Both the position numbers and the translations under genes were made by a program. Under the pieces are notes generated by a model, which saw only the letters and a list, made by a program, of their open reading frames with translations, did no database searches and was not told the origin of the DNA. Shown here piece by piece: positions 34,482 through 56,473 of a stretch of DNA of 64,000 nt (position 1 is its first letter; every line of letters begins with the position of its first letter). This DNA comes from Escherichia coli (GTDB lineage: Bacteria > Pseudomonadota > Gammaproteobacteria > Enterobacterales > Enterobacteriaceae). The stretch lies in assembly GCA_022969815.1 (NCBI GenBank), contig GCA_022969815.1_4535.1, one strand, 5' to 3'.

Positions 34482-35216
34482 TTAACCTCCGTTATTCGAC
34501 GGTGTGTTGGTATCCCTTGCAGCATCCCTGTTGATCGGGTTGTCAACTTTAGCTCCGCCAGTTGGCGCTTTGCTCTTAACTTCACCACCAGTAGATTTGT
34601 TCGGAGCGGTCTTCACAGCTATCGCGTTAGTTGTTGCAGTGCTCACCAGACGAATCTGTTCCAGTTCCAGATTAAATTGCATAGCAAACTCTGAACGATA
34701 TTCGTAAGTGTAACCTTTCAGGATCACGTTCTCGAAAGTACGGTGTTCTGTCAATAGAACTATCGGTTGACGAGCATCAAAAATCTGATCCAAATACTCA
34801 ATTGCTTGAGAGATACGTGTTCCATTAACACCTGCACTGTAAAGCTGATCACGCATCAAACGTACAGGCGTTTCTGTAATAACACCTGTCAATTTAAAAG
34901 TGTTGTTGTTTATTTTGACGTTATCACTCACTGTACTACCTGATTCAACAGGGAAGCTTGTGATATCGGCTGAACGAGTTACTCCAACTTCCGGTGCGGA
35001 GTCGAAAGTAATCGCCATAAAGTTTTGTATGTATTGATCACTTGAGCTATTGTAAACACTGGCTAAGATACAAAAACCGTTATCACCTTTCACCGTGGAG
35101 GCGGAGTTATTCGTATTTTGTGTTGAGTTCACCTCTTGCTCGGATTTGTAGACGGCTCTTACCGACTGTTGTGGAGTCATTGCTGCCATGATAACCTCAT
35201 AGTAATGGTAATGCAA
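34482..35216 (-). CDS. hypothetical tail protein
   Basis: ORF. Confidence 0.45.
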   Translation of the reverse strand: MHYHYYEVIMAAMTPQQSVRAVYKSEQEVNSTQNTNNSASTVKGDNGFCILASVYNSSSDQYIQNFMAITFDSAPEVGVTRSADITSFPVESGSTVSDNVKINNNTFKLTGVITETPVRLMRDQLYSAGVNGTRISQAIEYLDQIFDARQPIVLLTEHRTFENVILKGYTYEYRSEFAMQFNLELEQIRLVSTATTNAIAVKTAPNKSTGGEVKSKAPTGGAKVDNPINRDAARDTNTPSNNGG

Positions 35217-35291
35217 AGAGGAAGATGCAAGATCTTCCCATATTGATTATAATACCACAAATGTCGCCGTTATGTCAATGTAAAAATAATC

Positions 35292-35321
35292 CTTGACTAC
35301 CGTGATCCGCCTTGCTACACT
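35292..35321 (+). promoter_or_regulatory. sigma70-like promoter for the plus-strand cassette gene
   Basis: TTGACT (35293-35298), 17-nt spacer, TACACT (35316-35321), upstream of RBS AAGGAGG and ATG 35347. Confidence 0.4.
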
Positions 35322-35346
35322 GTATTTATTAACTAAGGAGGAAATT

Positions 35347-36360
35347 ATGGGCGTGATTAAAGGTTGGGACATTCAGAAGAAAGAATGTGAAGAAGTGGCA
35401 AGACCAGGTATTACTGTTCTTGGATTTGTTGAACCGTGGAATGGTGCACATACTAAACTGATGCTGAAATGTGAGAAGCATGGAGAATGGAATACAACCT
35501 CCATCAACAACTTCAAAAAGAATGGTTCTGGTTGTAATGGTTGTCGAGCAGATATATGTGGTGCGAGAGCAGAAGGGAATAGTTTTGCAAGTAAAAATGC
35601 TATCTCAGATGAGCAACACATTAAGGATTTCTTGGCTACCGGATTGTTTGCAGAGGGGACGACTTTCGTAAACACAGGGGTGAAAACAAAAGCTAAGAAC
35701 GATTGTTTCTGGAAAGTAACTTGTCCTGTTTGTGCGGTAGACGAATACTCCAAAGCAGGATTAGGAGATGGATCTTTTGAAGCCAGAACTTCGCATATGA
35801 AACGGGGTCAAATCCCTTGTCGTTGCTCTCCTCGGCATATCTACTCTAAAGATCAGTGGATGTTTAGATTTCAGTTAATGTGTGAAGAAAAAGGTTATAC
35901 TTTTGTCAAGGCCATTTATGAAGGGGAAGCATACTCTCACGGAGATGTTGAATACACCTGTCCAGAACACGGCTCGCAACGCATGACTGTGAAGAACCTC
36001 ATGTCAGGTAAAGGTTGTCCAGAGTGTGCCAATAAAACGCAACAGTTCTGTTATATTAATGAAGTGTACGATGAAGATAATAATCTCTGTGCTCTTAAAT
36101 TTGGAATTGCCAATGATGCTGAACGTAGGATCAAAGGTCAGAATTCGAAGAATGCTTTCATAATGAAACAGAAAGTTGTCTACTTCTTTGATGATATCAA
36201 GTCGTGCCGAGCAGCGGAGAGGGAGTGTTTGAAGCTGTTGGAGTGCGGTGTTGTGAATAAATTTCAGTTGAAGGATGGACACACAGAAACAACACACCTT
36301 TCAAACTACACCAAGATTGTCGATATCTTTGAAGAATTTGGAGGGATGTTACAGAAATGA
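35347..36360 (+). CDS. zinc-ribbon repeat protein, possible free-standing homing endonuclease-like gene
   Basis: Opposite strand to the surrounding tail genes; own promoter-like and terminator elements; repeated HG.W...G.GC..C modules; weak GIY-YIG-like spacing (YINEVY ... LKFGIA ... RRIKGQN) near the C-terminus; about 0.8 kb from the intron. Confidence 0.4.
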   Translation: MGVIKGWDIQKKECEEVARPGITVLGFVEPWNGAHTKLMLKCEKHGEWNTTSINNFKKNGSGCNGCRADICGARAEGNSFASKNAISDEQHIKDFLATGLFAEGTTFVNTGVKTKAKNDCFWKVTCPVCAVDEYSKAGLGDGSFEARTSHMKRGQIPCRCSPRHIYSKDQWMFRFQLMCEEKGYTFVKAIYEGEAYSHGDVEYTCPEHGSQRMTVKNLMSGKGCPECANKTQQFCYINEVYDEDNNLCALKFGIANDAERRIKGQNSKNAFIMKQKVVYFFDDIKSCRAAERECLKLLECGVVNKFQLKDGHTETTHLSNYTKIVDIFEEFGGMLQK

Positions 36361-36386
36361 AAAAAGGGGCCGAAGCCCCTTTCTTT
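36361..36386. terminator. bidirectional terminator
   Basis: AAAAAGGGGC-CGAAG-CCCCTTTCTTTT. Confidence 0.65.
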
Positions 36387-37156
36387 TAGTTGCTGTTTGA
36401 CTGTCCACTTAACGTCTGCAAAGTCAGGCTCTGCATGAACGATTCAGAAGAAGCTTTAGCATTGAAATCAATGTAATCGGAAAGACGAGAAACATCACTT
36501 TGTAATGTCAAGGCAACTTCCGGTGTCAACGTAATGTTGAAGGTCGGGTTTGTCTGGTACTGCATAGCTTTAGATTGGAAATTCTGTGCGTCTTGACGAA
36601 TAGATTCTCCGGTAAACGTATAATTGTTTGCCGCAGATCCTGATCCATCTTTCTCAAAATATCCCACAACCTTATCCCAAATAGAAACACCTTCATCATT
36701 TTTGGAAGTGAGTCCATCTGAAACCGCCGCAAAAGGGTTAAAGGTTCTGTTCGCCATATCCCACACACTGGCATCTTTTCCTGTAGCTGCATAAATGAAA
36801 CCGAAGTTCTCGCGCATGAAGCTATCCAACCCTGTAAAGATGTTCAGGAACATGGTTGCAGTTTTGGCTGTGTTGACAGTTAACTTACCCATCTCTTCAC
36901 CCAAATCTTTCGCTACCTTATCCAACATTTTTACGTTGTCCAACCAGGACTCGTCTTTAGGTATTGCGTTCATAAATCCTTCCAGGAAATAGTTCTGCAT
37001 ACCTTGCCCGACCAAGCCTACCGTGGCAGTCAAGCGTGTGTACTCTTTAGAAGCTTCCATTTGCTCATTGGTCAACGCAGCACCAGTACGTTGAAGCATA
37101 CGGAGGGTTTCTTGGAAGCCTTCTCCGTTCTTGCTAAACATACGTTGGTAATGCAT
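36386..37156 (-). CDS. tail tape measure protein, C-terminal segment (3' exon; the ORF continues upstream of this ATG in frame to 37189)
   Basis: In-frame open reading continues 33 nt upstream of ATG 37156 into the intron 3' end; position after tube and chaperone genes. Confidence 0.5.
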   Translation of the reverse strand: MHYQRMFSKNGEGFQETLRMLQRTGAALTNEQMEASKEYTRLTATVGLVGQGMQNYFLEGFMNAIPKDESWLDNVKMLDKVAKDLGEEMGKLTVNTAKTATMFLNIFTGLDSFMRENFGFIYAATGKDASVWDMANRTFNPFAAVSDGLTSKNDEGVSIWDKVVGYFEKDGSGSAANNYTFTGESIRQDAQNFQSKAMQYQTNPTFNITLTPEVALTLQSDVSRLSDYIDFNAKASSESFMQSLTLQTLSGQSNSN

Positions 37157-37523
37157 GAGGTCGTCACCAAGGTTCTCAAGGCTTTGATTTTAAAGGAGTT
37201 TTTGTTAGTAACTCCCCCAGTTCTAACTTCGAACTGCTGCAACTTTCATTGCAGGAAAGACTATATCTTCATCTACGTGAGATGCTTCGCACTTCGCCCC
37301 ACTTGGGGCTACTCTACTCGCTTCCGTATCACTACGTGCTTTCGATAGTCGTTGAACTTTACTCTCGGTGAGAGTCTTAGCTGCTGATTACCCATTGTAC
37401 CATCTTGACAATTTTCAAGCATTCACGCCTGGCGTTGCCGCCTACGTTGTAGCTTGTCAAGCTTTAGGGAGTTCCAGCAATTCACGAAGTTTTCATTACC
37501 TTATCGCTAAGGTACGGCCCCTG
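37157..37523 (-). ncRNA. group I self-splicing intron (compact, no ORF) interrupting the tape measure gene; boundaries approximate
   Basis: On the minus strand the four conserved core elements occur in order: P AATTGCTGGAA (plus 37472-37482), Q AATCAGCAG (37381-37389), R GTTCAACGACTAT (37345-37357), S AAGATATAGTC (37259-37269), with P/Q and R/S pairings; region has no ORF. Confidence 0.75.
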
Positions 37524-38690
37524 TTAAGAAAGGCGACCAATCTGTGCCGAGTTCATGCCACGACGCTCACCTTCATTCACAGTTGCCTGTATGAAAGCTA
37601 ATGGATCGTTCTGCATGTGTTTAATTTGTGAAGGGTTCCAACCGAACATGTTCATGATATCGTTGATACCGTTATCACCCCCACGCCATTTTCCTTTTTT
37701 CTCATCCCATTCAGCAGCCATCATCGAGTTACCCAAACGTTCACGAACGTCTTTAAGGTTATCGATTGACTTAATAATGTTTGCCGAGTCAACACCGTTC
37801 TGTTCACCCCAAGCAGTCATTGTCATAATGGCGTTAGCGTTTGCCTGAACGTTCTCTGCACCACGACCTATGAACTTGATACGATCGTTAGCAGTTTGTA
37901 ACGTATTACCTACAACAGAACCACCTGCAAACAGTCCTGCACCAATCATGGATGAAACCATCATGCGAGGATTAAGGCCCAAAGCGCCATCTCTCATTTG
38001 CGAGTATTGACGATCTTTATCTCGGCGTTGCTGTGCCAGTTCACGTTTATGGTTACGCTCAATATCACGTAGCTCTTTATCACGCATACGCTGACGTTGT
38101 TTGGCTTCTGCTTCCAATTCACGACGAACTCGACGACGACCACGTACTTCATCTTCGATATCTTTTACTTTCTCTCGGTGAGATCGACGAAGATTATCAA
38201 GCTGGTGGGCCAGTGTCTGGTTCATACGTTGAAGAGTGATATCTCCACGTTTGTACGATTCTACAGAAGCATCCATGATTTGTTTGGCTTGGCGTTGCGC
38301 ATCTAAGGAAGCTTTGGTATACTGCATACCACGCTTTTCAAAGTTCTCCATACGGAGATTGCCTAAATCATTACGACGAGCCTGTAGCTCGGCAGCGCGT
38401 TCTTCTGGAGTTTTCTTTCCTGGTTTAGCTGGACGACCAGGACCGGAGGTAGTTCCACCACCTTTTGGAGTAGGAGGGGGAGCAGGGCGAGCAGGGAAAG
38501 TCTGCGCTTTACGCATTTCTCTTTCGATCTCTTTCATCTGCTGCCTAAACTTACTCATGTTTAAGGTGGGCTGTATTCTTTCAGCGAACTTTTTAACACT
38601 CTCTACAGAATCTTTGGCTTCTTTGAGACTGTTCTTGTCCACCTTAAATGTGACTACGTTACTGATTTTAGCCGCGTTTATATCTAACAA
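37524..38690 (-). CDS. tail tape measure protein, N-terminal segment (5' exon; the annotated TAA stop is probably inside the intron)
   Basis: 388-aa charged coiled-coil protein rich in R/K/E/Q; located after tail tube and chaperone genes; too short alone for a tape measure. Confidence 0.55.
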   Translation of the reverse strand: MLDINAAKISNVVTFKVDKNSLKEAKDSVESVKKFAERIQPTLNMSKFRQQMKEIEREMRKAQTFPARPAPPPTPKGGGTTSGPGRPAKPGKKTPEERAAELQARRNDLGNLRMENFEKRGMQYTKASLDAQRQAKQIMDASVESYKRGDITLQRMNQTLAHQLDNLRRSHREKVKDIEDEVRGRRRVRRELEAEAKQRQRMRDKELRDIERNHKRELAQQRRDKDRQYSQMRDGALGLNPRMMVSSMIGAGLFAGGSVVGNTLQTANDRIKFIGRGAENVQANANAIMTMTAWGEQNGVDSANIIKSIDNLKDVRERLGNSMMAAEWDEKKGKWRGGDNGINDIMNMFGWNPSQIKHMQNDPLAFIQATVNEGERRGMNSAQIGRLS

Positions 38691-38705
38691 AGTATTTTCC
38701 TCATG

Positions 38706-38954
38706 TTAGTGGATCATTTTCTTAAACATGTCTTGCATTTGAGTAGCGTTCTCTTGTTGCTTTCTCTTTATTGAAGTGTCTTTGGTGTACAGAGCTTCAA
38801 TATATTCCTCATAAGTGAGGTACTCGTACATCCCCAATAGATAATCCACCCCGTATTGATCCAGGGTGGAGCGTGTTTCCGAGGTATTCTTCACGACCTT
38901 GCAGAGAATGATCTCATACCACTTCAACGTAAGGGTCTTCTCTGCTGTTTCCAT
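38706..38954 (-). CDS. tail assembly chaperone-like protein
   Basis: Position between tube and tape measure. Confidence 0.4.
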   Translation of the reverse strand: METAEKTLTLKWYEIILCKVVKNTSETRSTLDQYGVDYLLGMYEYLTYEEYIEALYTKDTSIKRKQQENATQMQDMFKKMIH

Positions 38955-38974
38955 CGCATGACGAATGGCTGGGC

Positions 38975-39457
38975 TTAGTTCGTTGCCAGATCCTGAACTG
39001 CTTGGAACTGGGTCAACAGTTTTCCGAAACCTCGTTTGAAAAAAGGGCCGTAGTTCACCTCAAGAACTTTTGCTGTCAAGTCGAGGACAAGTTCTGGGTG
39101 AGCAAAGAAGAGTTCGTCGAAGTTATCAGATACGTTGTGACCTGCTTCGGTATATACTTCATCTAAGATCTTACGGAGGAACACAGTAAGGTTCTTCTCT
39201 TCAAGACCAGAGAACAATTGAATAAGTGCCATTGCAATACGAGATTCCAGATCTTCTTCAGCCGACATAAGGGCAGTATTGTACATGGTCATAGGTACAG
39301 CTAAAACGCTACCGAGTTCTGGGATACGCTCGAAGACCTTTGAAGGACTCCATTTCAGAATACGGAAGGTTACAAAACGGGTTTCATCTAAGTAGATTTT
39401 TACGATTTCTTCTGGACGTGCATATTGTTTGATAGTATCATCTTGTTGTTCGGACAT
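38975..39457 (-). CDS. tail assembly chaperone-like protein
   Basis: Position between tube and tape measure. Confidence 0.45.
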   Translation of the reverse strand: MSEQQDDTIKQYARPEEIVKIYLDETRFVTFRILKWSPSKVFERIPELGSVLAVPMTMYNTALMSAEEDLESRIAMALIQLFSGLEEKNLTVFLRKILDEVYTEAGHNVSDNFDELFFAHPELVLDLTAKVLEVNYGPFFKRGFGKLLTQFQAVQDLATN

Positions 39458-42080: not shown

Positions 42081-42522
42081 AGTTTCCTCCCTCTTGATCG
42101 TAATCCCACGTATTGTTTTGATCGTCTAATATGGCGACACAATGATGATGGGTTAGGAAAGTAGTTCGAGTCCAATCTTTAAGGGAGTACACAGAATACC
42201 ACTGACCATCAATCAAGATTTGGTCGGATAGTTGAGAGGTTCCTTGTTGGATGCCTCGCATTTCTGTTTTAGTCCAGAAACTATATTGCGCCTTTGATCT
42301 GTACCCTTCGGGCAGTGCTTTTAGAGTTTTTCCAGAGATTGGTTGCAGACTTGCAGCCGCTATCTCAAACTCTTCATATTCTACGGTACTACCCATATTG
42401 GCGATAACAGAACCTACAGCTTCTTTGTAGACACGTCTACGCCCTTGATATGAGGTAAGATCAAGGAGAGTGAATTGATCAAGTAACACCTGTATCTCCT
42501 TTTTAGTATACATCAAAAACAA
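42073..42522 (-). CDS. neck / tail terminator-like protein
   Basis: Position. Confidence 0.4.
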   Translation of the reverse strand: MFLMYTKKEIQVLLDQFTLLDLTSYQGRRRVYKEAVGSVIANMGSTVEYEEFEIAAASLQPISGKTLKALPEGYRSKAQYSFWTKTEMRGIQQGTSQLSDQILIDGQWYSVYSLKDWTRTTFLTHHHCVAILDDQNNTWDYDQEGGNFG

Positions 42523-42534
42523 AATTTATGCAAG

Positions 42535-43023
42535 TTATTTTTTAGACTTGCCTTTTGTGATCTTCGAGTCTATCTCGTTAATCATGTGCCCTGTGTCAAT
42601 CAAAGTATGCGTAGAGTAATTCCCTTTATCACGACGAATCTTAATTGTCACCGGAGAAAGTGCTCTATATCGTTGGGAAGCTATTGCTCTTGCTATTCCT
42701 TCACGAGAAGCTTTCGCTATCGGCTCAAAAACTCCGAGTCCTTTATTTCGCATAAGGTATTGAACAAAAACATTCGGTAATAGCTTGGCTATCTCTTTAC
42801 TGGAAATCACAGCACCGTCAGTCATAAACGGACGGGCTGGAATATTATTTGTTTCGTTACCATATTGCTGGATAGCAGCTATCGCTGGAATAGTGAGATC
42901 TGATTCAGGGTGTCTCTTGTTTTCAAGGAAACCAGCTTCAATTTCCACATTCTCTAATACCATCATCTTTTTAATGATTGTATCCCAGTCTGTGTCTGTA
43001 CCTGGTAAGATCTCACTTTTCAT
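42535..43023 (-). CDS. head-tail joining protein
   Basis: Position. Confidence 0.4.
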   Translation of the reverse strand: MKSEILPGTDTDWDTIIKKMMVLENVEIEAGFLENKRHPESDLTIPAIAAIQQYGNETNNIPARPFMTDGAVISSKEIAKLLPNVFVQYLMRNKGLGVFEPIAKASREGIARAIASQRYRALSPVTIKIRRDKGNYSTHTLIDTGHMINEIDSKITKGKSKK

Positions 43024-43571
43024 TATTTGTCCCTACGATAATATGATACAGGTCCGTAGTTTCGCAGATAGTTTACGTTACGTGTTTTACGATCTACACT
43101 GGCAACATTACCTAAACCATTCACAGAGTTAGGATCGCTGTTGACACGATCGATTTCACGAGCATCTACACCGCCAATCAGAACACGACTTGTTGCACCA
43201 CGTCCAGCGGTACACCCTGGAATAACCATTAAGCCGTTCAGGTAGTTGTTGTAGATATCTTCCCAAGGAGATTTGTATTCTACTTGACCGTTACTAAATT
43301 TAACTTCTACTTCCACTTCGCCCATCTTTTCACGGCGGGACATTGCACCACCACTTTGACTGTTGTTATTTAAAACATCAGTGTTCCACAGGTATTCAAG
43401 AACAGAAATTAAACTGTTCCATAGAACAGCACACTTATTAGAGTCGGCGTTACCAATAATATCGATCCATGTCTGGATAATCTGAATCAACACTGCGTCT
43501 GGCAAAGTTTCTTGAGACGGATTATAAACAAGGATTCGAACCATTGGTGCCAATTCAGTAGCAATCAGCAT
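43023..43571 (-). CDS. head completion / adaptor protein
   Basis: Position. Confidence 0.4.
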   Translation of the reverse strand: MLIATELAPMVRILVYNPSQETLPDAVLIQIIQTWIDIIGNADSNKCAVLWNSLISVLEYLWNTDVLNNNSQSGGAMSRREKMGEVEVEVKFSNGQVEYKSPWEDIYNNYLNGLMVIPGCTAGRGATSRVLIGGVDAREIDRVNSDPNSVNGLGNVASVDRKTRNVNYLRNYGPVSYYRRDK

Positions 43572-53455: not shown

Positions 53456-53575
53456 GATTTGTCCTATTAAGTATTTAGTGTTTAGTGGGTTGTGCGTTTT
53501 AGGAGTCGCACCCCTCCCTCTTAGAAGGAACCAGGCAAGGTCTTCAAAGATACCGCTGGCGCGATATTTGGAGGC

Positions 53576-53654
53576 GGGAATCGGATTCGAACCGATGATC
53601 TCCAGCATATGAAACTGGCGAGGACGACCAAACTCCTCTATCCCGCTATTAGGT
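53576..53654 (-). tRNA. tRNA-Met (anticodon CAU), CCA encoded; A1/C72 mismatch suggests initiator or Ile2 identity
   Basis: Hand-folded cloverleaf: D-stem GAGG/CCTC, anticodon stem CCAGT/GCTGG, loop TTCATAT, T-arm ATCGG-TTCGAAT-CCGAT. Confidence 0.7.
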
Positions 53655-53660
53655 GTCCCG

Positions 53661-53729
53661 TGCTGGATTCGAACCAGCATCACAATAGTTGTGGATCTCT
53701 TATCCTGTAAGTCTAACGGGAAACTGGTT
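53661..53729 (-). tRNA. tRNA-like element, non-canonical (possible pseudo-tRNA)
   Basis: Intact T-arm (GCTGG-TTCGAAT-CCAGC) and 6/7 acceptor pairing, but I could not fold a canonical D-arm or a 5-7-5 anticodon arm; no encoded CCA. Confidence 0.35.
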
Positions 53730-53731
53730 GT

Positions 53732-53805
53732 TTCGACAAGAATCGAACTTGTATCTCACGATTATCAGTCGTGGGTTCTACCATTGAACTACGAAACATT
53801 TAATT
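53732..53805 (-). tRNA. tRNA-Ile (anticodon GAU), CCA encoded
   Basis: Acceptor TGTTTCG/CGAAACA, D-arm GTTC-AATGGTA-GAAC, anticodon arm CACGA-CTGATAA-TCGTG, T-loop TTCGATT. Confidence 0.75.
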
Positions 53806-53821
53806 GGTAGGAATTGCAGGA

Positions 53822-54163
53822 TTACCAAGTAACATCATGCCCTGAATGGAAAGCGCAATGACAGTTCTTACAGAGTAAGACGCAATTCTCTATCTCTTTG
53901 TCTATTCTTGCAAGTGACCAGCCACGCATAGATCCGTAGTTCTTATCTTTTATTGCTGGGTCAAGATGGTGAATATCCAAAGATTCTTCATACTGATTAA
54001 ATCCGCAAGCGGCGCACTTACCTCCTAACTTATCACGAGCATATTTTTTCTTATGTTGTCCAAGTTCTGTCGTATACTTATTATGACAGGCTCCACAAAT
54101 AGATTTCTTATGTCCGTAGAATTTCGTAGGATCTTCTTCGCCACAATGACTGCATTTACACAT
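53822..54163 (-). CDS. HNH homing endonuclease inserted in the tRNA cluster
   Basis: Cys-rich with HHLDP ... N ... LLCKNCH (HNH-type motif); sits between tRNA genes. Confidence 0.65.
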   Translation of the reverse strand: MCKCSHCGEEDPTKFYGHKKSICGACHNKYTTELGQHKKKYARDKLGGKCAACGFNQYEESLDIHHLDPAIKDKNYGSMRGWSLARIDKEIENCVLLCKNCHCAFHSGHDVTW

Positions 54164-54184
54164 ACAAAAAATCTCTTTACAAAT

Positions 54185-54260
54185 TGGTCAGCCTAAGAAG
54201 ACTTGAACTTCTAACCTCACCGCCCCAAACGGCGCACTCTTCCAATTGAGCTATAGGCTG
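54185..54260 (-). tRNA. tRNA-Pro (anticodon UGG), CCA encoded
   Basis: Acceptor CAGCCTA/TAGGCTG, anticodon arm CGCCG-TTTGGGG-CGGTG, T-loop TTCAAGT. Confidence 0.75.
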
Positions 54261-54460
54261 TTAATAAAAAATCTCACGTCTTATACAAGCTAACCTTTTG
54301 CCTGATGCATGAAATTTAAATACATTCTAAAGGTACACCGTAAAAGATTGTCGGGGCGATACTTCAAAAACATACCGATCCGTAGATCGATAATCAGACA
54401 AACTTCGACGGCTCCTCGTTTTTAACTTCACACTTAAGGTAGTGACTCACCTTTGTTATA

Positions 54461-54536
54461 TGGCTGGTCTGTCTGGATTTGAACCAAACCTACGACAGTC
54501 AAAGTGTCGTGTGCTACCGGACTACAATACAAACCA
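54461..54536 (-). tRNA. tRNA-Gln (anticodon UUG), CCA encoded
   Basis: Acceptor TGGTTTG/CAGACCA, anticodon arm CGACA-CTTTGAC-TGTCG, T-loop TTCAAAT; D-stem looks to be 3 bp. Confidence 0.65.
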
Positions 54537-54626
54537 TTTAATGAAGGGCAACCAGAAGAGGTGTGAGAGAAGGAGAAAACCATGAGTAAAAGAGAAAGTT
54601 TTCTGGCAACCCTTTATTAAATAATT

Positions 54627-54700
54627 TGGAGCGTTCTACGAGTTTCGAACTCGTGCCGCCGACTTGGAAGGACGGAATGCTACCGCTACACCAAGAACGC
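54627..54700 (-). tRNA. tRNA-Gly (anticodon UCC), CCA encoded
   Basis: Acceptor GCGTTCT/AGAACGC, anticodon loop CTTCCAA, T-loop TTCGAAA; one U-U mismatch in the anticodon stem. Confidence 0.65.
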
Positions 54701-55268
54701 CCTACATCTTTACTATACTACATTTTACTATCAGTTGTCAATAGTTTTATTGGGCGGGACAGTGACGAGTATCCCATTGGGTGACTAACCCTACGTTCGG
54801 TTGTGATTAATCTCCTGGGTGTCGCTTGCAACACTGGAAAACTCTCACGTCGATGGGAGAATCCGCTTCTTCTTTACCCCATCCAACCCTACTCCGGTCA
54901 AGTTTCAGGTGACTCTTTTTGTGATCAACACAATACTAAGAACACTGTCTTTCGAGCAGACCTTGTGCACAGGATACGACGATCAATCACAGTGCTCTTA
55001 ATGTTGTGCCACAATAATAAGAACATTCAAACGATGACCACTTTTAGTGGAGAGATTTACAAAATGCTCTTAATGTTGTGTTGTGAATACTAACCTCGGA
55101 ACTCATTACCGCGCTTTGGCTCGACCTTATTACAGGTTAGTGAATGTCTTTCGTCCGATTACATTCAATAAATTTGCTTTCTTCACAACGATAAGAACAC
55201 TTAACAGAAGATAGGTCTGATTGCCTCGGATGATTTCTCAGTAGCCTAAATGTTCTTACCTGTTATGT

Positions 55269-55344
55269 TGGTGCTCCAAGTAGGACTCGAACCTACGACC
55301 TCATGCTTACAAGGCAAGTGCTCTACCAACTGAGCTATTGAAGC
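55269..55344 (-). tRNA. tRNA-Thr (anticodon UGU), CCA encoded
   Basis: D-arm GCTC-AGTTGGTA-GAGC, anticodon loop CTTGTAA, T-arm GTAGG-TTCGAGT-CCTAC. Confidence 0.7.
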
Positions 55345-55696
55345 GTATTGCGCCCCTTCAGCCATGCTTGATGTTGACCAGAACACAGTTAAACTGTGGG
55401 AGGAGGAACACCGCAGGGGGCTTCAGTTGGACGACTTACAGGGAGCGACCCTGTTTCTTTTCTGGGACTCGGCAGGATTCGATACCTGCAATTCCAGAAG
55501 CCTCTTGGCAACTGAGGGTTTACCTTAACCCTACAAGTCCATAATTCTTAAATACTTTGGAGCCTTACTGATAAACCGTTAGTTTGTAACATAGCGTATT
55601 TCCATTCTGGGGCACCGCCTGTGAATGTAATTCCAATACAAACTTTCTCAAGATCAAACCAATTATCAAATAACATTACAACCTCCAGTTTGAATT

Positions 55697-55780
55697 TGGT
55701 GTGAGATGATGGATTCGAACCACCGCGCCTTTCAGAAGGGATTTACAGTCCCCCGCAATCGACCACTCTGCCAATCTCAC
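55697..55780 (-). tRNA. tRNA-Tyr (anticodon GUA), long variable arm, CCA encoded
   Basis: Acceptor GTGAGAT/ATCTCAC, anticodon arm GGGGA-CTGTAAA-TCCCT, 12-nt variable arm, T-loop TTCGAAT. Confidence 0.7.
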
Positions 55781-55904
55781 AAAATTGTTTTTAAAGTAGC
55801 CAGTATTCGCGGTACTGACTATGCGGTATCGGAGATGGTGAGAGCCATCTGCCGAAAGTTTACTCTGTTAAAGTAAGAAACAACAAGCTACATTAAAAAC
55901 AACT

Positions 55905-55990
55905 TGGCGGTAGATGTAGGACTCGAACCTACACGCCGTTTCCGACTACAGTTTAGCAAACTGTTGTGGCTACCATTTCACCAATCTACC
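55905..55990 (-). tRNA. tRNA-Ser (anticodon GCU), long variable arm, CCA encoded
   Basis: Acceptor GGTAGAT/ATCTACC, anticodon arm ACAGT-TTGCTAA-ACTGT, 15-nt variable arm, T-loop TTCGAGT. Confidence 0.7.
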
Positions 55991-55996
55991 TAAATT

Positions 55997-56086
55997 TGGA
56001 GGAAGGTAATGGAGTCGAACCATCACCGTATCTCTACAATGGGCCAGGGTTCAAATCTGGTTGCGTACCACTACGCCCTACCTTCC
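55997..56086 (-). tRNA. tRNA-Ser (anticodon UGA), long variable arm, CCA encoded
   Basis: Acceptor GGAAGGT/ACCTTCC, anticodon loop TTTGAAC with A31-C39 mismatch, long variable arm, T-loop TTCGACT. Confidence 0.6.
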
Positions 56087-56321
56087 ATACATTTAATCTA
56101 ACATAAAACGATGTTGATTGTCAACACCTTTTAAAACATTTTATTATGAATGGTGACTCCACCAACCCCCGTTCTCCACGAACGGTACTCTTCGAGCAAT
56201 CTACCCTTGCAATCAAACGTTGTACACCGTTAGCTTACTCATGCATATTTGCCTCATTCTCTGCCAACCATGATCAGTGGTAGGGTTCAAATCACTTGAG
56301 CTAATTCATACTAAAATGTTC

Positions 56322-56396
56322 TGGTGTCTTTACAAGGAATCGAACCTTGACTAAGAGTTTAGAAGACTCCTGTGCTATCCATTACACCATAAAGAC
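56322..56396 (-). tRNA. tRNA-Arg (anticodon UCU), CCA encoded
   Basis: Acceptor GTCTTTA/TAAAGAC, anticodon arm GGAGT-CTTCTAA-ACTCT, T-loop TTCGATT. Confidence 0.75.
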
Positions 56397-56398
56397 GT

Positions 56399-56473
56399 TG
56401 GTGGCCCTGACTGGTTTCGATCCAGTTGCCTATCGGTTATGAGCCGACTGCTCTCCCATTGAGCTACAGGGCC
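56399..56473 (-). tRNA. tRNA-Met or Ile2 (anticodon CAU), CCA encoded; unusual A at T-loop position 54
   Basis: Acceptor GGCCCTG/CAGGGCC, D-arm GCTC-AATGGGA-GAGC, anticodon arm GTCGG-CTCATAA-CCGAT, T-loop ATCGAAA. Confidence 0.65.

What the first reader, a model, noticed from the sequence alone, without database searches (positions are those of the whole stretch)
35292..36386. Autonomous plus-strand gene cassette inside the minus-strand tail module, next to the intron
A single plus-strand gene (35347..36360) sits between baseplate genes and the intron-containing tape measure gene, with its own promoter-like element (TTGACT-17-TACACT), a strong RBS and a bidirectional terminator. The protein has repeated zinc-ribbon-like modules (HG.W...G.GC..C, at least three copies) and a weakly GIY-YIG-like C-terminal stretch. 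This architecture resembles a free-standing homing endonuclease placed beside an intron, which could promote mobility of the intron or exclude related phages.
Basis: inference. Interest (0 to 1): 0.55.

Follow-up and report, generated by a model that had tools for sequence, protein, structure and literature searches.

The report
Free-standing homing endonuclease gene beside tape-measure intron
This is an intact, selfish-type "homing endonuclease" gene (three zinc-finger DNA-binding modules plus a GIY-YIG-like nuclease) wedged into the tail genes of a large E. coli phage; it belongs to an already described family, and its link to the neighbouring intron is possible but not required.

Summary
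Window 35347..36360 (+) is an intact 337-aa gene with its own sigma-70-like promoter and a strong RBS. It uses a hairpin terminator that belongs to the phage backbone. It lies between a Dit-like baseplate gene and a tape measure gene (TMP) split by a 349-nt group I intron.

The protein has three CapR-type zinc-finger modules and a C-terminal T5orf172 (GIY-YIG superfamily) nuclease domain. This is the architecture of the T5orf172 homing endonuclease genes (HEGs) described by Barth et al. 2023.

- **Variable presence:** the gene is present or absent among Phapecoctavirus-like coliphages whose flanks are 95-100% identical.
- **Traces of loss:** close HEG-less relatives keep remnants of its ends.
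- **Long residence:** orthologues occupy the same spacer down to 50% aa identity. The seven examined as DNA are intact, and dN/dS was 0.05-0.25 wherever dS was not saturated.

The link to the intron is not obligate. Four HEG+ lineages lack the intron, and the intron insertion site is identical in intronless HEG+ and HEG- phages, which argues against strict collaborative homing. However, all four intron+ lineages whose spacer is visible carry the HEG, so mobE-like trans-mobilisation remains plausible.

Verdict: new member of a known kind, modest interest.

The parts
35290..36341 (+). Cassette as defined by the indel against HEG-less close relatives (phiWec188/190, PsgM04F, L010). It contains the promoter, the RBS and nearly the whole CDS.
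   Evidence: blastn and junction inspection. In phiWec188 the 1052 bp are replaced by about 15 nt.
35293..35321 (+). Sigma-70-like promoter: TTGACT, 17 nt, TACACT, with a TG extended -10 element.
   Evidence: The hexamers and the 17-nt spacing are conserved while the spacer sequence varies across seven orthologous loci.
35335..35341 (+). Ribosome-binding site AAGGAGG, 5 nt upstream of the ATG.
   Evidence: The leader is nearly invariant across the seven HEG+ loci (L008/L009 carry a 3-nt insertion in the RBS region).
35347..36360 (+). CDS of the homing endonuclease-like protein, 337 aa plus stop.
   Evidence: PHROG 681 'endonuclease', E 1.7e-55. Orthologues intact; dN/dS 0.05-0.25 in every comparison where dS was not saturated.
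35386..35544 (+). CapR-type zinc-finger module 1 (aa 14-66). Proposed ligands C42, H45, C63, C66.
   Evidence: Pfam CapR 43.5 bits. C42, C63 and C66 are invariant in 31 homologues.
35623..35829 (+). CapR-type zinc-finger module 2 (aa 93-161), motif CxxC...CxC. Proposed ligands C126, C129, C158, C160. This is the most diverged segment against phiWec179.
   Evidence: Pfam CapR 48.4 bits. Conservation. Nucleotide identity 69% in 35700-35799 against 96-99% in the flanks; dS 1.16 against 0.12.
35854..36030 (+). CapR/DUF723/DUF4379-type zinc-finger module 3 (aa 170-228). Proposed ligands C205, H208, C224, C227.
   Evidence: Pfam CapR 28.8, DUF723 21.5 and DUF4379 22.1 bits. All four ligand positions are invariant.
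36046..36321 (+). T5orf172 (GIY-YIG superfamily) nuclease domain (aa 234-325). Invariant residues: Y236, K251, G253, I254, R261, Q265, E291, D310, G311, T313, E314, T315.
36363..36382 (.). G+C-rich hairpin terminator shared by the convergent HEG and TMP genes. It belongs to the backbone and is present in HEG-less relatives.
35249..35278 (-). Backbone promoter-like site (TTGACA, 18 nt, TATTAT, 11 of 12 matches) for the Dit-like gene. It diverges from the HEG promoter; the two -35 boxes are 14 nt apart.
   Evidence: It lies in the 35000-35299 block that is 97-100% identical in all close relatives.
34482..35216 (-). Left neighbour: Dit-like (distal tail / baseplate) gene.
   Evidence: PF21821 Dit_like on the orthologues.
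36386..37181 (-). Right neighbour: TMP exon 2, the 3' part of the gene. The segment 36416-36931 is a hypervariable allele block.
37182..37530 (-). ORF-less group I intron in the TMP gene, 349 nt. The boundaries come from intronless relatives combined with the rule that the intron ends in G.
   Evidence: Rfam RF00028, 84.6 bits. blastn gap against L001-L005. Splicing in silico restores a 651-aa TMP nearly identical to that of phiWec188. Junctions.
37531..38690 (-). TMP exon 1, the 5' part of the gene.

Best explanation
The cassette is a free-standing homing endonuclease gene of the T5orf172 / CapR-zinc-finger family, resident in the Dit|TMP intergenic spacer of a Phapecoctavirus-like coliphage.

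Inferred mechanism:
1. Host RNA polymerase transcribes the gene from its own promoter.
2. The three bead-on-a-string zinc-finger modules together read a long DNA site.
3. The C-terminal GIY-YIG-fold domain (Arg261, Glu291 and the DGxTET motif) nicks or cuts DNA nearby.
4. In a mixed infection the target is the homologous region of a co-infecting relative that lacks the gene.
5. Recombinational repair from the HEG+ genome copies the cassette and a variable length of flanking DNA into the recipient.

Shown here: the domain architecture, the fold, conservation of the catalytic-type residues, purifying selection, the presence/absence polymorphism and long residence at this one site. Inferred, not shown: nuclease activity, the target site, and actual homing.

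The neighbouring ORF-less intron is not needed for this. At most it is dragged along by co-conversion.
For: **Architecture**
- Three CapR modules each score above the Pfam cut-off.
- The C-terminal domain matches T5orf172.
- PHROG 681 'endonuclease', E 1.7e-55.
- tblastn finds 337 phage records and 477 places, including ICP1 genes annotated 'putative homing endonuclease' (29% identity, E 2e-17).

**Fold**
- The C-terminal model has pLDDT 96 and pTM 0.88.
- Further down the list are I-TevI, PD-T4-3, EF2693, UvrC and Eco29kI.

**Conservation**
- Y236, K251, G253, R261, E291, D310, G311, T313, E314 and T315 are invariant in 31 homologues. So are 10 of the 12 proposed zinc ligands; C129 is nearly invariant and H45 is not conserved across the wider family.
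- dN/dS is 0.05-0.25 in every domain comparison where dS was not saturated. All seven orthologous CDS are intact.

**Mobility signatures**
- The cassette is absent from phiWec188/190, PsgM04F and L010. Their flanks are 95-100% identical to HEG+ genomes.
- It is also absent from ESCO13, and megablast detects only a 261-bp left-flank match in the other ~64 mainstream records.
- It sits at the same spacer in phiWec179/181/186, L005, L006, L007, L008, L009, L017 and L019, at 50-90% aa identity.
- Paralogues of about 35-45% identity occupy another site in many Stephanstirmvirinae.
- The gene adjoins an essential gene and a sharp boundary of sequence exchange. Barth et al. 2023 (PMC10448857) describe the same pattern for this family.

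**Precedent for activity**
- The T5orf172 protein Odn cuts DNA in vitro, and an E180A change abolishes cutting (PMC8263062).
Against: - No enzymatic or genetic evidence exists. Barth et al. note that homing has not been shown experimentally even for the ICP1 T5orf172 genes.
- The T5orf172 score is marginal: 17.5 bits in the whole protein, 20.7 bits alone.
- The canonical second tyrosine of the 'YIG' motif is replaced by Lys-Phe-Gly.
- Long residence at one site with strong purifying selection is not the classic invade-then-decay HEG life cycle. It could instead mean a function that benefits the phage.
- The close HEG-less relatives look like deletion derivatives, not naive targets. The polymorphism seen in that clade therefore documents loss, not gain.
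Confidence: 0.8

Rival explanations
1. Trans-homing add-on, not exclusive of the best explanation. The HEG cuts somewhere in or near the 3' half of the TMP gene. Gene-conversion tracts that start at that break sometimes extend the roughly 820 bp to the intron, so the ORF-less intron is mobilised in trans. This is how T4 MobE mobilises the defunct nrdB intron.
For: - The intron has no ORF (349 nt).
- It is polymorphic among near-identical genomes. It is present in the window, L011 and L019/L020. It is absent in phiWec179/188, PsgM04F, L005 and L010.
- It sits at the same site in a lineage whose exons are only 67-72% identical (L009). There the intron itself is 85% identical.
- All four intron+ lineages with a visible spacer carry the HEG, and no HEG-/intron+ genome was found.
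- HEG+/intron- genomes are expected under this model.
- Precedent: Wilson & Edgell 2009 (PMC2790892).
Against: - The sample is small and phylogenetically non-independent. Within the close clade the counts are 4 of 8 HEG+ lineages with the intron against 0 of 3 HEG- lineages.
- No co-conversion tract linking HEG and intron could be seen. The flanks of the intron are equally similar to intron+ and intron- relatives.
- The hypervariable TMP block lies between HEG and intron and assorts independently of both.
- The higher identity of the intron may only reflect constraint on the ribozyme.
Confidence: 0.35
2. Strict collaborative homing. The endonuclease's recognition site is the intron insertion site of the intronless TMP allele, and the intron protects the HEG+ genome by splitting that site. 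The models are F-CphI with the psbA intron, and the T3-type DNA polymerase intron.
For: A free-standing HEG lies next to an ORF-less intron in the adjacent essential gene. The intron is never seen without the HEG. The same arrangement is noted for ICP1 terL (PMC10448857).
Against: - Four HEG+ lineages have no intron.
- phiWec179 (HEG+, intronless) and phiWec188 (HEG-, intronless) are identical from -30 to +14 around the insertion site. Such a nuclease would cleave its own genome.
- HEG orthologues diverge in step with the backbone down to 50% aa identity, so the gene predates the patchy intron.
Confidence: 0.1
3. Domesticated derivative. The protein mainly serves the phage in one of two ways. 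It may be a DNA-binding regulator, like the satellite repressor CapR or the autorepressing I-TevI, acting for example on the back-to-back HEG and Dit promoters. Or it may be a nuclease directed at satellites or competitors, like Odn.
For: - Long residence at one site, strong purifying selection and an invariant promoter and leader.
- CapR-type fingers bind a -35 region in the characterised case (PMC8096241).
- The two -35 boxes here are 14 nt apart.
Against: - The nuclease-type residues are invariant, and the nuclease domain is under the same purifying selection as the fingers. This argues against a pure repressor.
- The gene is dispensable: close relatives lack it.
- There is no RepA_N or other satellite-derived targeting domain.
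- There is no PADLOC match.
Confidence: 0.1
4. Inactive relic: a decaying HEG with no remaining activity.
For: The close HEG-less relatives arose by deletion, which shows the gene can be lost.
Against: All seven orthologues examined are full length without stops. dN/dS is 0.05-0.25 where dS was not saturated, and the motif residues are invariant.
Confidence: 0.04

Closest known systems
T5orf172 homing endonuclease genes with CapR/DUF723/DUF4379 zinc-finger arrays (ICP1, T5-like and other phages; Barth, Dunham & Seed 2023, PMC10448857)
   Same: - Same architecture: repeated CapR-type zinc fingers at the N-terminus and T5orf172 at the C-terminus.
- Direct sequence similarity to ICP1 genes.
- Free-standing, variable among close isolates, next to essential genes including TMP, and located at a boundary of sequence exchange.
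- An ORF-less intron lies in the adjacent gene, as at ICP1 terL.
   Different: - The host lineage is Stephanstirmvirinae coliphages, which the text of that paper does not mention.
- This is a site-specific orthologous lineage that has stayed in one spacer down to 50% aa identity under purifying selection. It is not a set of frameshifted, decaying copies.
- Neither here nor in ICP1 has homing been shown.
CapR, capsid-operon repressor of the Vibrio cholerae satellite PLE (Netter et al. 2021, PMC8096241)
   Same: The zinc-finger DNA-binding domain is homologous. All three modules hit the Pfam CapR model, and module 2 has the CxxC...CxC motif.
   Different: CapR has no nuclease domain and acts as a repressor. 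This protein keeps a conserved nuclease domain and has three fingers.
Odn (ICP1 gp88), origin-directed T5orf172 nuclease (Barth et al. 2021, PMC8263062)
   Same: The T5orf172 catalytic domain. For Odn, DNA cleavage and its dependence on the conserved Glu were shown experimentally.
   Different: Odn is targeted by a RepA_N domain taken from the satellite and serves as an anti-satellite defence. The gene here uses zinc fingers and lies in the tail module.
T4 MobE with the defunct nrdB intron (I-TevIII): trans homing (Wilson & Edgell 2009, PMC2790892)
   Same: A free-standing HEG next to an essential gene whose intron cannot move by itself. This is a plausible model for how the TMP intron here could spread.
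   Different: MobE is an HNH enzyme without a promoter of its own. Here the enzyme belongs to the GIY-YIG superfamily and has its own promoter. Dependence of the intron on the HEG is untested.
T4 Seg proteins and I-TevI (canonical GIY-YIG homing endonucleases)
   Different: - Domain order is reversed: the nuclease is C-terminal here.
- The 'YIG' tyrosine is replaced by K-F-G.
- There is no Pfam GIY-YIG (PF01541) or NUMOD match.
- The DNA-binding modules are CapR zinc fingers.

Membership tests
T5orf172 / CapR-zinc-finger homing endonuclease genes (Barth et al. 2023) | C-terminal T5orf172 domain (Pfam PF10544, GIY-YIG superfamily per Barth et al.) | tested here: met
   20.7 bits against a cut-off of 20 when aa 228-337 are scanned alone, and 17.5 bits in the whole protein. 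16 of 17 relatives match, best E 2.8e-5; 8 also match MUG113. The match is marginal but consistent.
T5orf172 / CapR-zinc-finger homing endonuclease genes (Barth et al. 2023) | One or more CapR/DUF723/DUF4379 zinc-finger DNA-binding modules | tested here: met
   Three modules each pass the CapR cut-off of 24.2 bits, at 43.5, 48.4 and 28.8 bits. Module 3 also passes DUF723. 10 of the 12 proposed Cys/His ligands are invariant in 31 homologues; C129 is nearly invariant and H45 is not conserved across the wider family.
T5orf172 / CapR-zinc-finger homing endonuclease genes (Barth et al. 2023) | GIY-YIG-type fold of the catalytic domain with conserved Arg and Glu | tested here: met
   - The AF2 model (pLDDT 96) has beta-beta-alpha-beta-alpha-alpha order.
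- R261 and E291 are invariant.
- The equivalence of E291 with I-TevI E75 and Odn E180 is inferred from its position in the helix after strand 3.
T5orf172 / CapR-zinc-finger homing endonuclease genes (Barth et al. 2023) | Genomic signatures of a HEG: variable presence among close relatives, position next to essential genes, related copies at other sites | tested here: met
T5orf172 / CapR-zinc-finger homing endonuclease genes (Barth et al. 2023) | Site-specific DNA cleavage and super-Mendelian inheritance (homing) | not testable with these tools
   This needs nuclease assays and phage crosses.
Canonical GIY-YIG homing endonucleases (I-TevI, SegA-G) | Pfam GIY-YIG (PF01541) match with GIY and YIG tyrosines; NUMOD/IENR-type DNA-binding modules; N-terminal nuclease | tested here: not met
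   - No PF01541 or NUMOD hit even at E up to 10.
- The first motif is C-Y-I (Y236) and the second is K-F-G.
- The nuclease is C-terminal.
- Only the fold is shared.
HNH homing endonucleases | HNH (beta-beta-alpha-metal) catalytic motif | tested here: not met
   No Pfam HNH hit. The PHROG 559 'HNH endonuclease' match (E 6.7e-12) covers only aa 29-233, which is the shared zinc-finger region.
Collaborative homing pair (free-standing HEG plus ORF-less intron) | [quoted passage not shown] | tested here: met
   The HEG stop codon is at 36360 and the intron spans 37182-37530, a gap of about 820 bp.
Collaborative homing pair (free-standing HEG plus ORF-less intron) | HEG and intron are inherited together, and the HEG-bearing genome is protected because the intron splits the target | tested here: not met
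   Four HEG+ lineages lack the intron. The insertion site is identical from -30 to +14 in HEG+ phiWec179 and HEG- phiWec188.
Collaborative homing pair (free-standing HEG plus ORF-less intron) | The endonuclease cleaves at the intron insertion site of intronless alleles | not testable with these tools
   This needs cleavage mapping.

The most novel reading that the evidence does not exclude
The HEG is an active, long-term resident 'motor' of this tail-module locus. Its breaks would drive three things: its own spread, the trans-mobilisation of the ORF-less TMP intron, and the shuffling of the deeply diverged TMP C-terminal alleles that abut it. That would make the locus a small 'HEG island' in a coliphage. 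It would also be the first experimentally tractable E. coli system in which homing by a T5orf172/CapR-finger endonuclease could be demonstrated. A swapped middle finger, as seen between the window and phiWec179, would retarget the enzyme.
Probability: 0.3. Interest if true: 0.5.

Novelty: new member of a known kind. Interest (0 to 1): 0.3.

Why it matters
The gene itself is an ordinary member of a family that is already described and widespread in phages.

Its modest value is as a natural experiment. Among the relatives, most sharing 91-100% identity and the rest down to about 70%, three of the four combinations occur: HEG+ intron+, HEG+ intron-, and HEG- intron-. At least three TMP C-terminal alleles occur as well.

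Homing has never been shown for T5orf172/CapR-finger endonucleases. Simple crosses with these E. coli phages could show it. They could also reveal whether such an enzyme carries a neighbouring ORF-less intron along, and whether it sets recombination boundaries in a structural gene.

For annotation, the 'hypothetical protein' at this position in phiWec179/181/186 can be named a putative T5orf172-family homing endonuclease. The two TMP fragments should be joined across a group I intron.

Tried and rejected
- **Profile search of PDB sequences** with the family alignment: no hit.
- **NCBIfam and PADLOC:** no hit.
- **tblastn of the protein against the window:** no paralogue within the 64 kb. A blastp self-comparison found no internal repeat at the sequence level, although Pfam detects three CapR modules.
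- **hhalign of the C-terminal family alignment against I-TevI:** Only a 13-residue, non-significant alignment resulted (E 0.14), so it serves only as a hint for R261.
- **Search for more intron carriers:**
  - An exact 28-mer from the intron found nothing in IMG/VR.
  - The same 28-mer found one 2.6-kb metagenome contig that stops short of the HEG site.
  - Megablast of the intron against deposited phages found nothing.
  - The 'distant' search found only conserved intron cores in unrelated phages.
- **TMP-based search of IMG/VR:** a single locus, HEG- and intronless.
- **Search with TMP exon 2:** gave L019/L020, which were useful, and P0047, an unrelated bacterial locus that was discarded.
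- **Co-conversion tracts around the intron and between HEG and intron:** sliding identity was uninformative.
- **Diversifying selection on finger 2:** considered and rejected. dN/dS is 0.11 while dS is ten times that of the N-terminal segment, which indicates recombination, not positive selection.
Full report
**1. What is in the sequence**

Window 35347..36360 on the + strand is an uninterrupted ORF of 337 codons. It is the only long + strand ORF inside a run of - strand tail genes extending from 26625 to beyond 46000.

- Upstream lie TTGACT (35293-35298), a 17-nt spacer, and TACACT (35316-35321) preceded by TG.
- AAGGAGG sits 5 nt before the ATG.
- Two bases after the stop codon lies the hairpin AAAGGGGCCGAAGCCCCTTT (36363-36382). 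It scores as a terminator on both strands.
- A single promoter-like match is not above chance: the scan found 3 sites against 4.2 expected in shuffles.
- Comparison with seven orthologous loci supports the promoter. Both hexamers, the 17-nt spacing and nearly the whole leader and RBS are conserved, while the spacer sequence differs.
- The terminator is also present in relatives that lack the gene. It is therefore the backbone's TMP terminator, shared by the two convergent genes.

**2. Genomic setting**

The window comes from a Phapecoctavirus-like (Stephanstirmvirinae) coliphage. Its closest deposited relatives are phiWec179/181/186, phiWec188/190 and 'Pseudomonas' phage PsgM04F.

- The left neighbour is a Dit-like baseplate gene. 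Orthologues carry PF21821.
- The right neighbour is the tape measure gene (TMP). Rfam finds a group I intron in it at 84.6 bits.
- Alignment with intronless relatives, combined with the rule that the intron ends in G, places the intron at 37182..37530, 349 nt.
- Removing the intron in silico restores a 651-aa TMP nearly identical to that of phiWec188.
- The intron is far too small to hold an endonuclease gene.

**3. The protein**

- Pfam gives CapR homology domain (PF21817, E 4e-28, three stretches), weaker DUF4379 and DUF723 zinc-finger matches, and a sub-threshold T5orf172 match at aa 235-319.
- Scanned separately, each of the three N-terminal segments passes the CapR cut-off, at 43.5, 48.4 and 28.8 bits against 24.2.
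- The C-terminal 110 residues alone reach 20.7 bits on T5orf172, whose cut-off is 20.
- 16 of 17 family members match T5orf172.
- PHROGs assigns the protein to phrog_681 'endonuclease' (E 1.7e-55). A match to an 'HNH endonuclease' PHROG covers only the finger region.
- In an alignment of 31 homologues, 10 of the 12 proposed zinc ligands are invariant. C129 is nearly invariant, and H45 is not conserved across the wider family. The ligand sets are C42/H45/C63/C66, C126/C129/C158/C160 and C205/H208/C224/C227.
- Also invariant are Y236, K251, G253, I254, R261, Q265, E291 and the D310-G-x-T-E-T315 motif.
- AlphaFold2 models the whole protein at pLDDT 87. The pTM is low (0.49), as expected for beads on a string.
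- The C-terminal domain alone is modelled at pLDDT 96 and pTM 0.88, with beta-beta-alpha-beta-alpha-alpha order.
- Foldseek found nothing significant.

One refinement applies: module 2 is of the CxxC...CxC type, not the HG...GC..C type.

**4. What is already known about this architecture**

- CapR is a repressor encoded by the Vibrio cholerae satellite PLE. Its zinc-finger domain is homologous to the DNA-binding domains of putative ICP1 homing endonucleases (PMC8096241).
- Barth, Dunham & Seed 2023 (PMC10448857) describe T5orf172 genes as a subfamily of GIY-YIG endonuclease genes.
  - 87% carry one or more CapR/DUF723/DUF4379 fingers, often several in tandem.
  - Their presence varies between close isolates.
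  - They cluster next to essential genes, including TMP and terminase, and sit at boundaries of genetic exchange.
- The same paper notes a T5orf172 gene beside the ORF-less intron of ICP1 terL and discusses collaborative homing. It states that homing by these genes has not been verified experimentally.
- Nuclease activity of a T5orf172 domain, abolished by E180A, was shown for Odn (PMC8263062).
- The protein here is directly similar to ICP1 'putative homing endonuclease' genes (29% identity, E 2e-17). Relatives occur in 337 deposited phage genomes at 477 places.

The gene is therefore a new member of a known kind.

**5. Comparative evidence for mobility and history**

*Absence in close relatives.* Against phiWec188/190, the interval 35290-36341 is replaced by about 15 nt, while the flanks are 95-100% identical. 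The same holds for PsgM04F and an IMG/VR genome, L010.

*Absence in mainstream genomes.* ESCO13 has only a 126-bp spacer there. In the other ~64 mainstream Phapecoctavirus records, megablast detects only a 261-bp left-flank match.

*Remnants in the close HEG-less genomes.*
- They retain TGTAAAAATA on the left.
- On the right they retain a roughly 20-nt stretch (GGAGGGG.TTA.AGAAATGA) that matches the last seven codons of the HEG.
- Neither stretch is present at the ESCO13 spacer.
- These genomes therefore look like at least two independent deletion derivatives, not naive targets. This is an inference.

*Orthologues at the same spacer.* They occur in phiWec179/181/186 (90% aa), L019 (91% nt), L005 (83%), L006 (77%), L007 (72%), L008/L009 (66/64%) and L017 (50%).
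- Divergence of the HEG tracks divergence of the backbone.
- The seven orthologous coding sequences examined are intact.
- dN/dS is 0.05-0.25 in every domain comparison where dS was not saturated.

*Paralogues.* Copies of about 35-45% identity occupy a different, early-gene site in many Stephanstirmvirinae.

*Mosaic within the gene.* Against phiWec179, nucleotide identity runs 99% at the 5' end, 69% in finger 2, 96% further on and 73% at the 3' end. dS is 0.12 in the N-terminal segment and 1.16 in finger 2. This points to recombinational exchange of a recognition module, not positive selection.

**6. A boundary of exchange**

- Immediately left of the cassette, 35000-35299 is 97-100% identical in all close relatives.
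- Immediately right, TMP segment 36416-36931 exists as at least three alleles only about 45-55% identical to one another:
  - allele A: window, phiWec188 and L011;
  - allele B: phiWec179, PsgM04F and L005;
  - allele C: L019/L020.
- These alleles assort independently of HEG presence.
- This fits the pattern in the title of Barth et al. It does not show that the HEG causes the exchange.

**7. Relation to the intron**

*Distribution of the intron.*
- The same intron at the same site is present in L011 (97% identical to window 36615-39245, intron included; the contig ends before the HEG site) and in L019/L020 (intron 95-100% identical to the window's).
- It is also present in the much more distant L009 and L008 (85% identical, against 67-72% for the exons).
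- It is absent from phiWec179/181/186, phiWec188/190, PsgM04F, L005, L006, L007, L010 and ESCO13.
- It is absent from all deposited phage genomes at megablast level.

*What the distribution implies.*
- The HEG occurs without the intron in four lineages.
- The intron was never seen without the HEG. This holds in the four lineages where both sites are visible.
- The intron is polymorphic among near-identical genomes yet has no endonuclease of its own.

*Against strict collaborative homing.* The insertion site is identical from -30 to +14 in HEG+ phiWec179 and HEG- phiWec188. An enzyme aimed at that site would cut its own genome.

*Better fit.* A mobE-like scenario (PMC2790892) fits the data better. 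There, gene conversion started by the free-standing enzyme sometimes carries the intron along.

*Limits of the evidence.*
- I found no co-conversion tract to support this.
- The association rests on few, related genomes.
- All intron+ alleles share GGTCGCCT at the 5' splice site, where intronless alleles have CGT or CGA. This may reflect P1 pairing or a minimal conversion tract.

**8. Verdict**

- The interpretation as a free-standing homing endonuclease gene is well supported on architecture, fold, conservation and distribution. Enzymatic proof is lacking.
- The proposed functional tie to the intron is possible but neither necessary nor demonstrated.
- The finding is a new member of a described family. 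Its main use is correct annotation and a convenient E. coli phage system for testing T5orf172 homing and intron trans-mobilisation.

Noticed in passing
window 36416-36931 (TMP exon 2, - strand): The C-terminal part of the tape measure protein exists as at least three alleles only about 45-55% identical at the nucleotide level, among genomes otherwise 91-100% identical. Allele A is in the window, phiWec188 and L011. Allele B is in phiWec179, PsgM04F and L005. Allele C is in L019/L020. The block starts right next to the HEG and terminator and assorts independently of HEG and intron.
   Followed up: partly
L002 6291-6325, L003 6290-6325, L010 5957-6084 (HEG-less relatives); compare window 35279-35289 and 36338-36360: HEG-less close relatives keep TGTAAAAATA and a copy of about 20 nt of the HEG's last seven codons (with Gln changed to stop in phiWec188). 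ESCO13 has neither. This suggests at least two independent deletions of the HEG, not naive empty sites.
   Followed up: partly
window 35608-35847 (finger 2 of the HEG) against L001: Within an otherwise 96-99% identical gene, the middle zinc-finger module is only about 69-83% identical to that of phiWec179. dS is 1.16 there against 0.12 in the N-terminal segment, and dN/dS is 0.11. This looks like recombinational swapping of a DNA-recognition module between HEG alleles.
   Followed up: partly
window 37182-37530 (-); L009 7889-8195; L019 4636-5006; L011 623-926: [quoted passage not shown]
- Every intron+ allele has CGC-CT at the 5' splice site, where intronless alleles have CGT or CGA.
- The 3' exon context differs between carriers: CCTTGAGAACCTT against ATTAGAAAATCTG.
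   Followed up: partly
window 35249-35321: The backbone promoter-like site for the Dit-like gene (- strand, 11 of 12 matches) and the HEG promoter (+ strand) are back to back, with their -35 boxes 14 nt apart. CapR-type fingers bind a -35 region in the one characterised case, so cross- or auto-regulation is conceivable.
   Followed up: no
records OR584014.1, MG065650.1, MG065645.1, OP562383.1: Genomes labelled Pseudomonas phage PsgM04F, Campylobacter phages B15 and A145, and Acinetobacter phage ABPW7 match this Phapecoctavirus-type locus as coliphages do: PsgM04F at 93-100% in the flanks, the others at about 84% in the left flank or via a ~42% HEG paralogue. The host labels may be unreliable.
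   Followed up: no
window 53572-56473 (- strand): A cluster of ten tRNA genes, all above the Rfam gathering score.
   Followed up: no
L012-L016 (ESCO8, TSP7_1, PsgM04F 42297-43292, L015, L016): A paralogous lineage of the same HEG family, 35-47% aa identity, occupies other early-gene sites. In four of these five loci (L012-L014, L016) it lies just downstream of an AAA-type ATPase gene and is co-oriented with its neighbours; L015 is a different early-gene context.
   Followed up: partly
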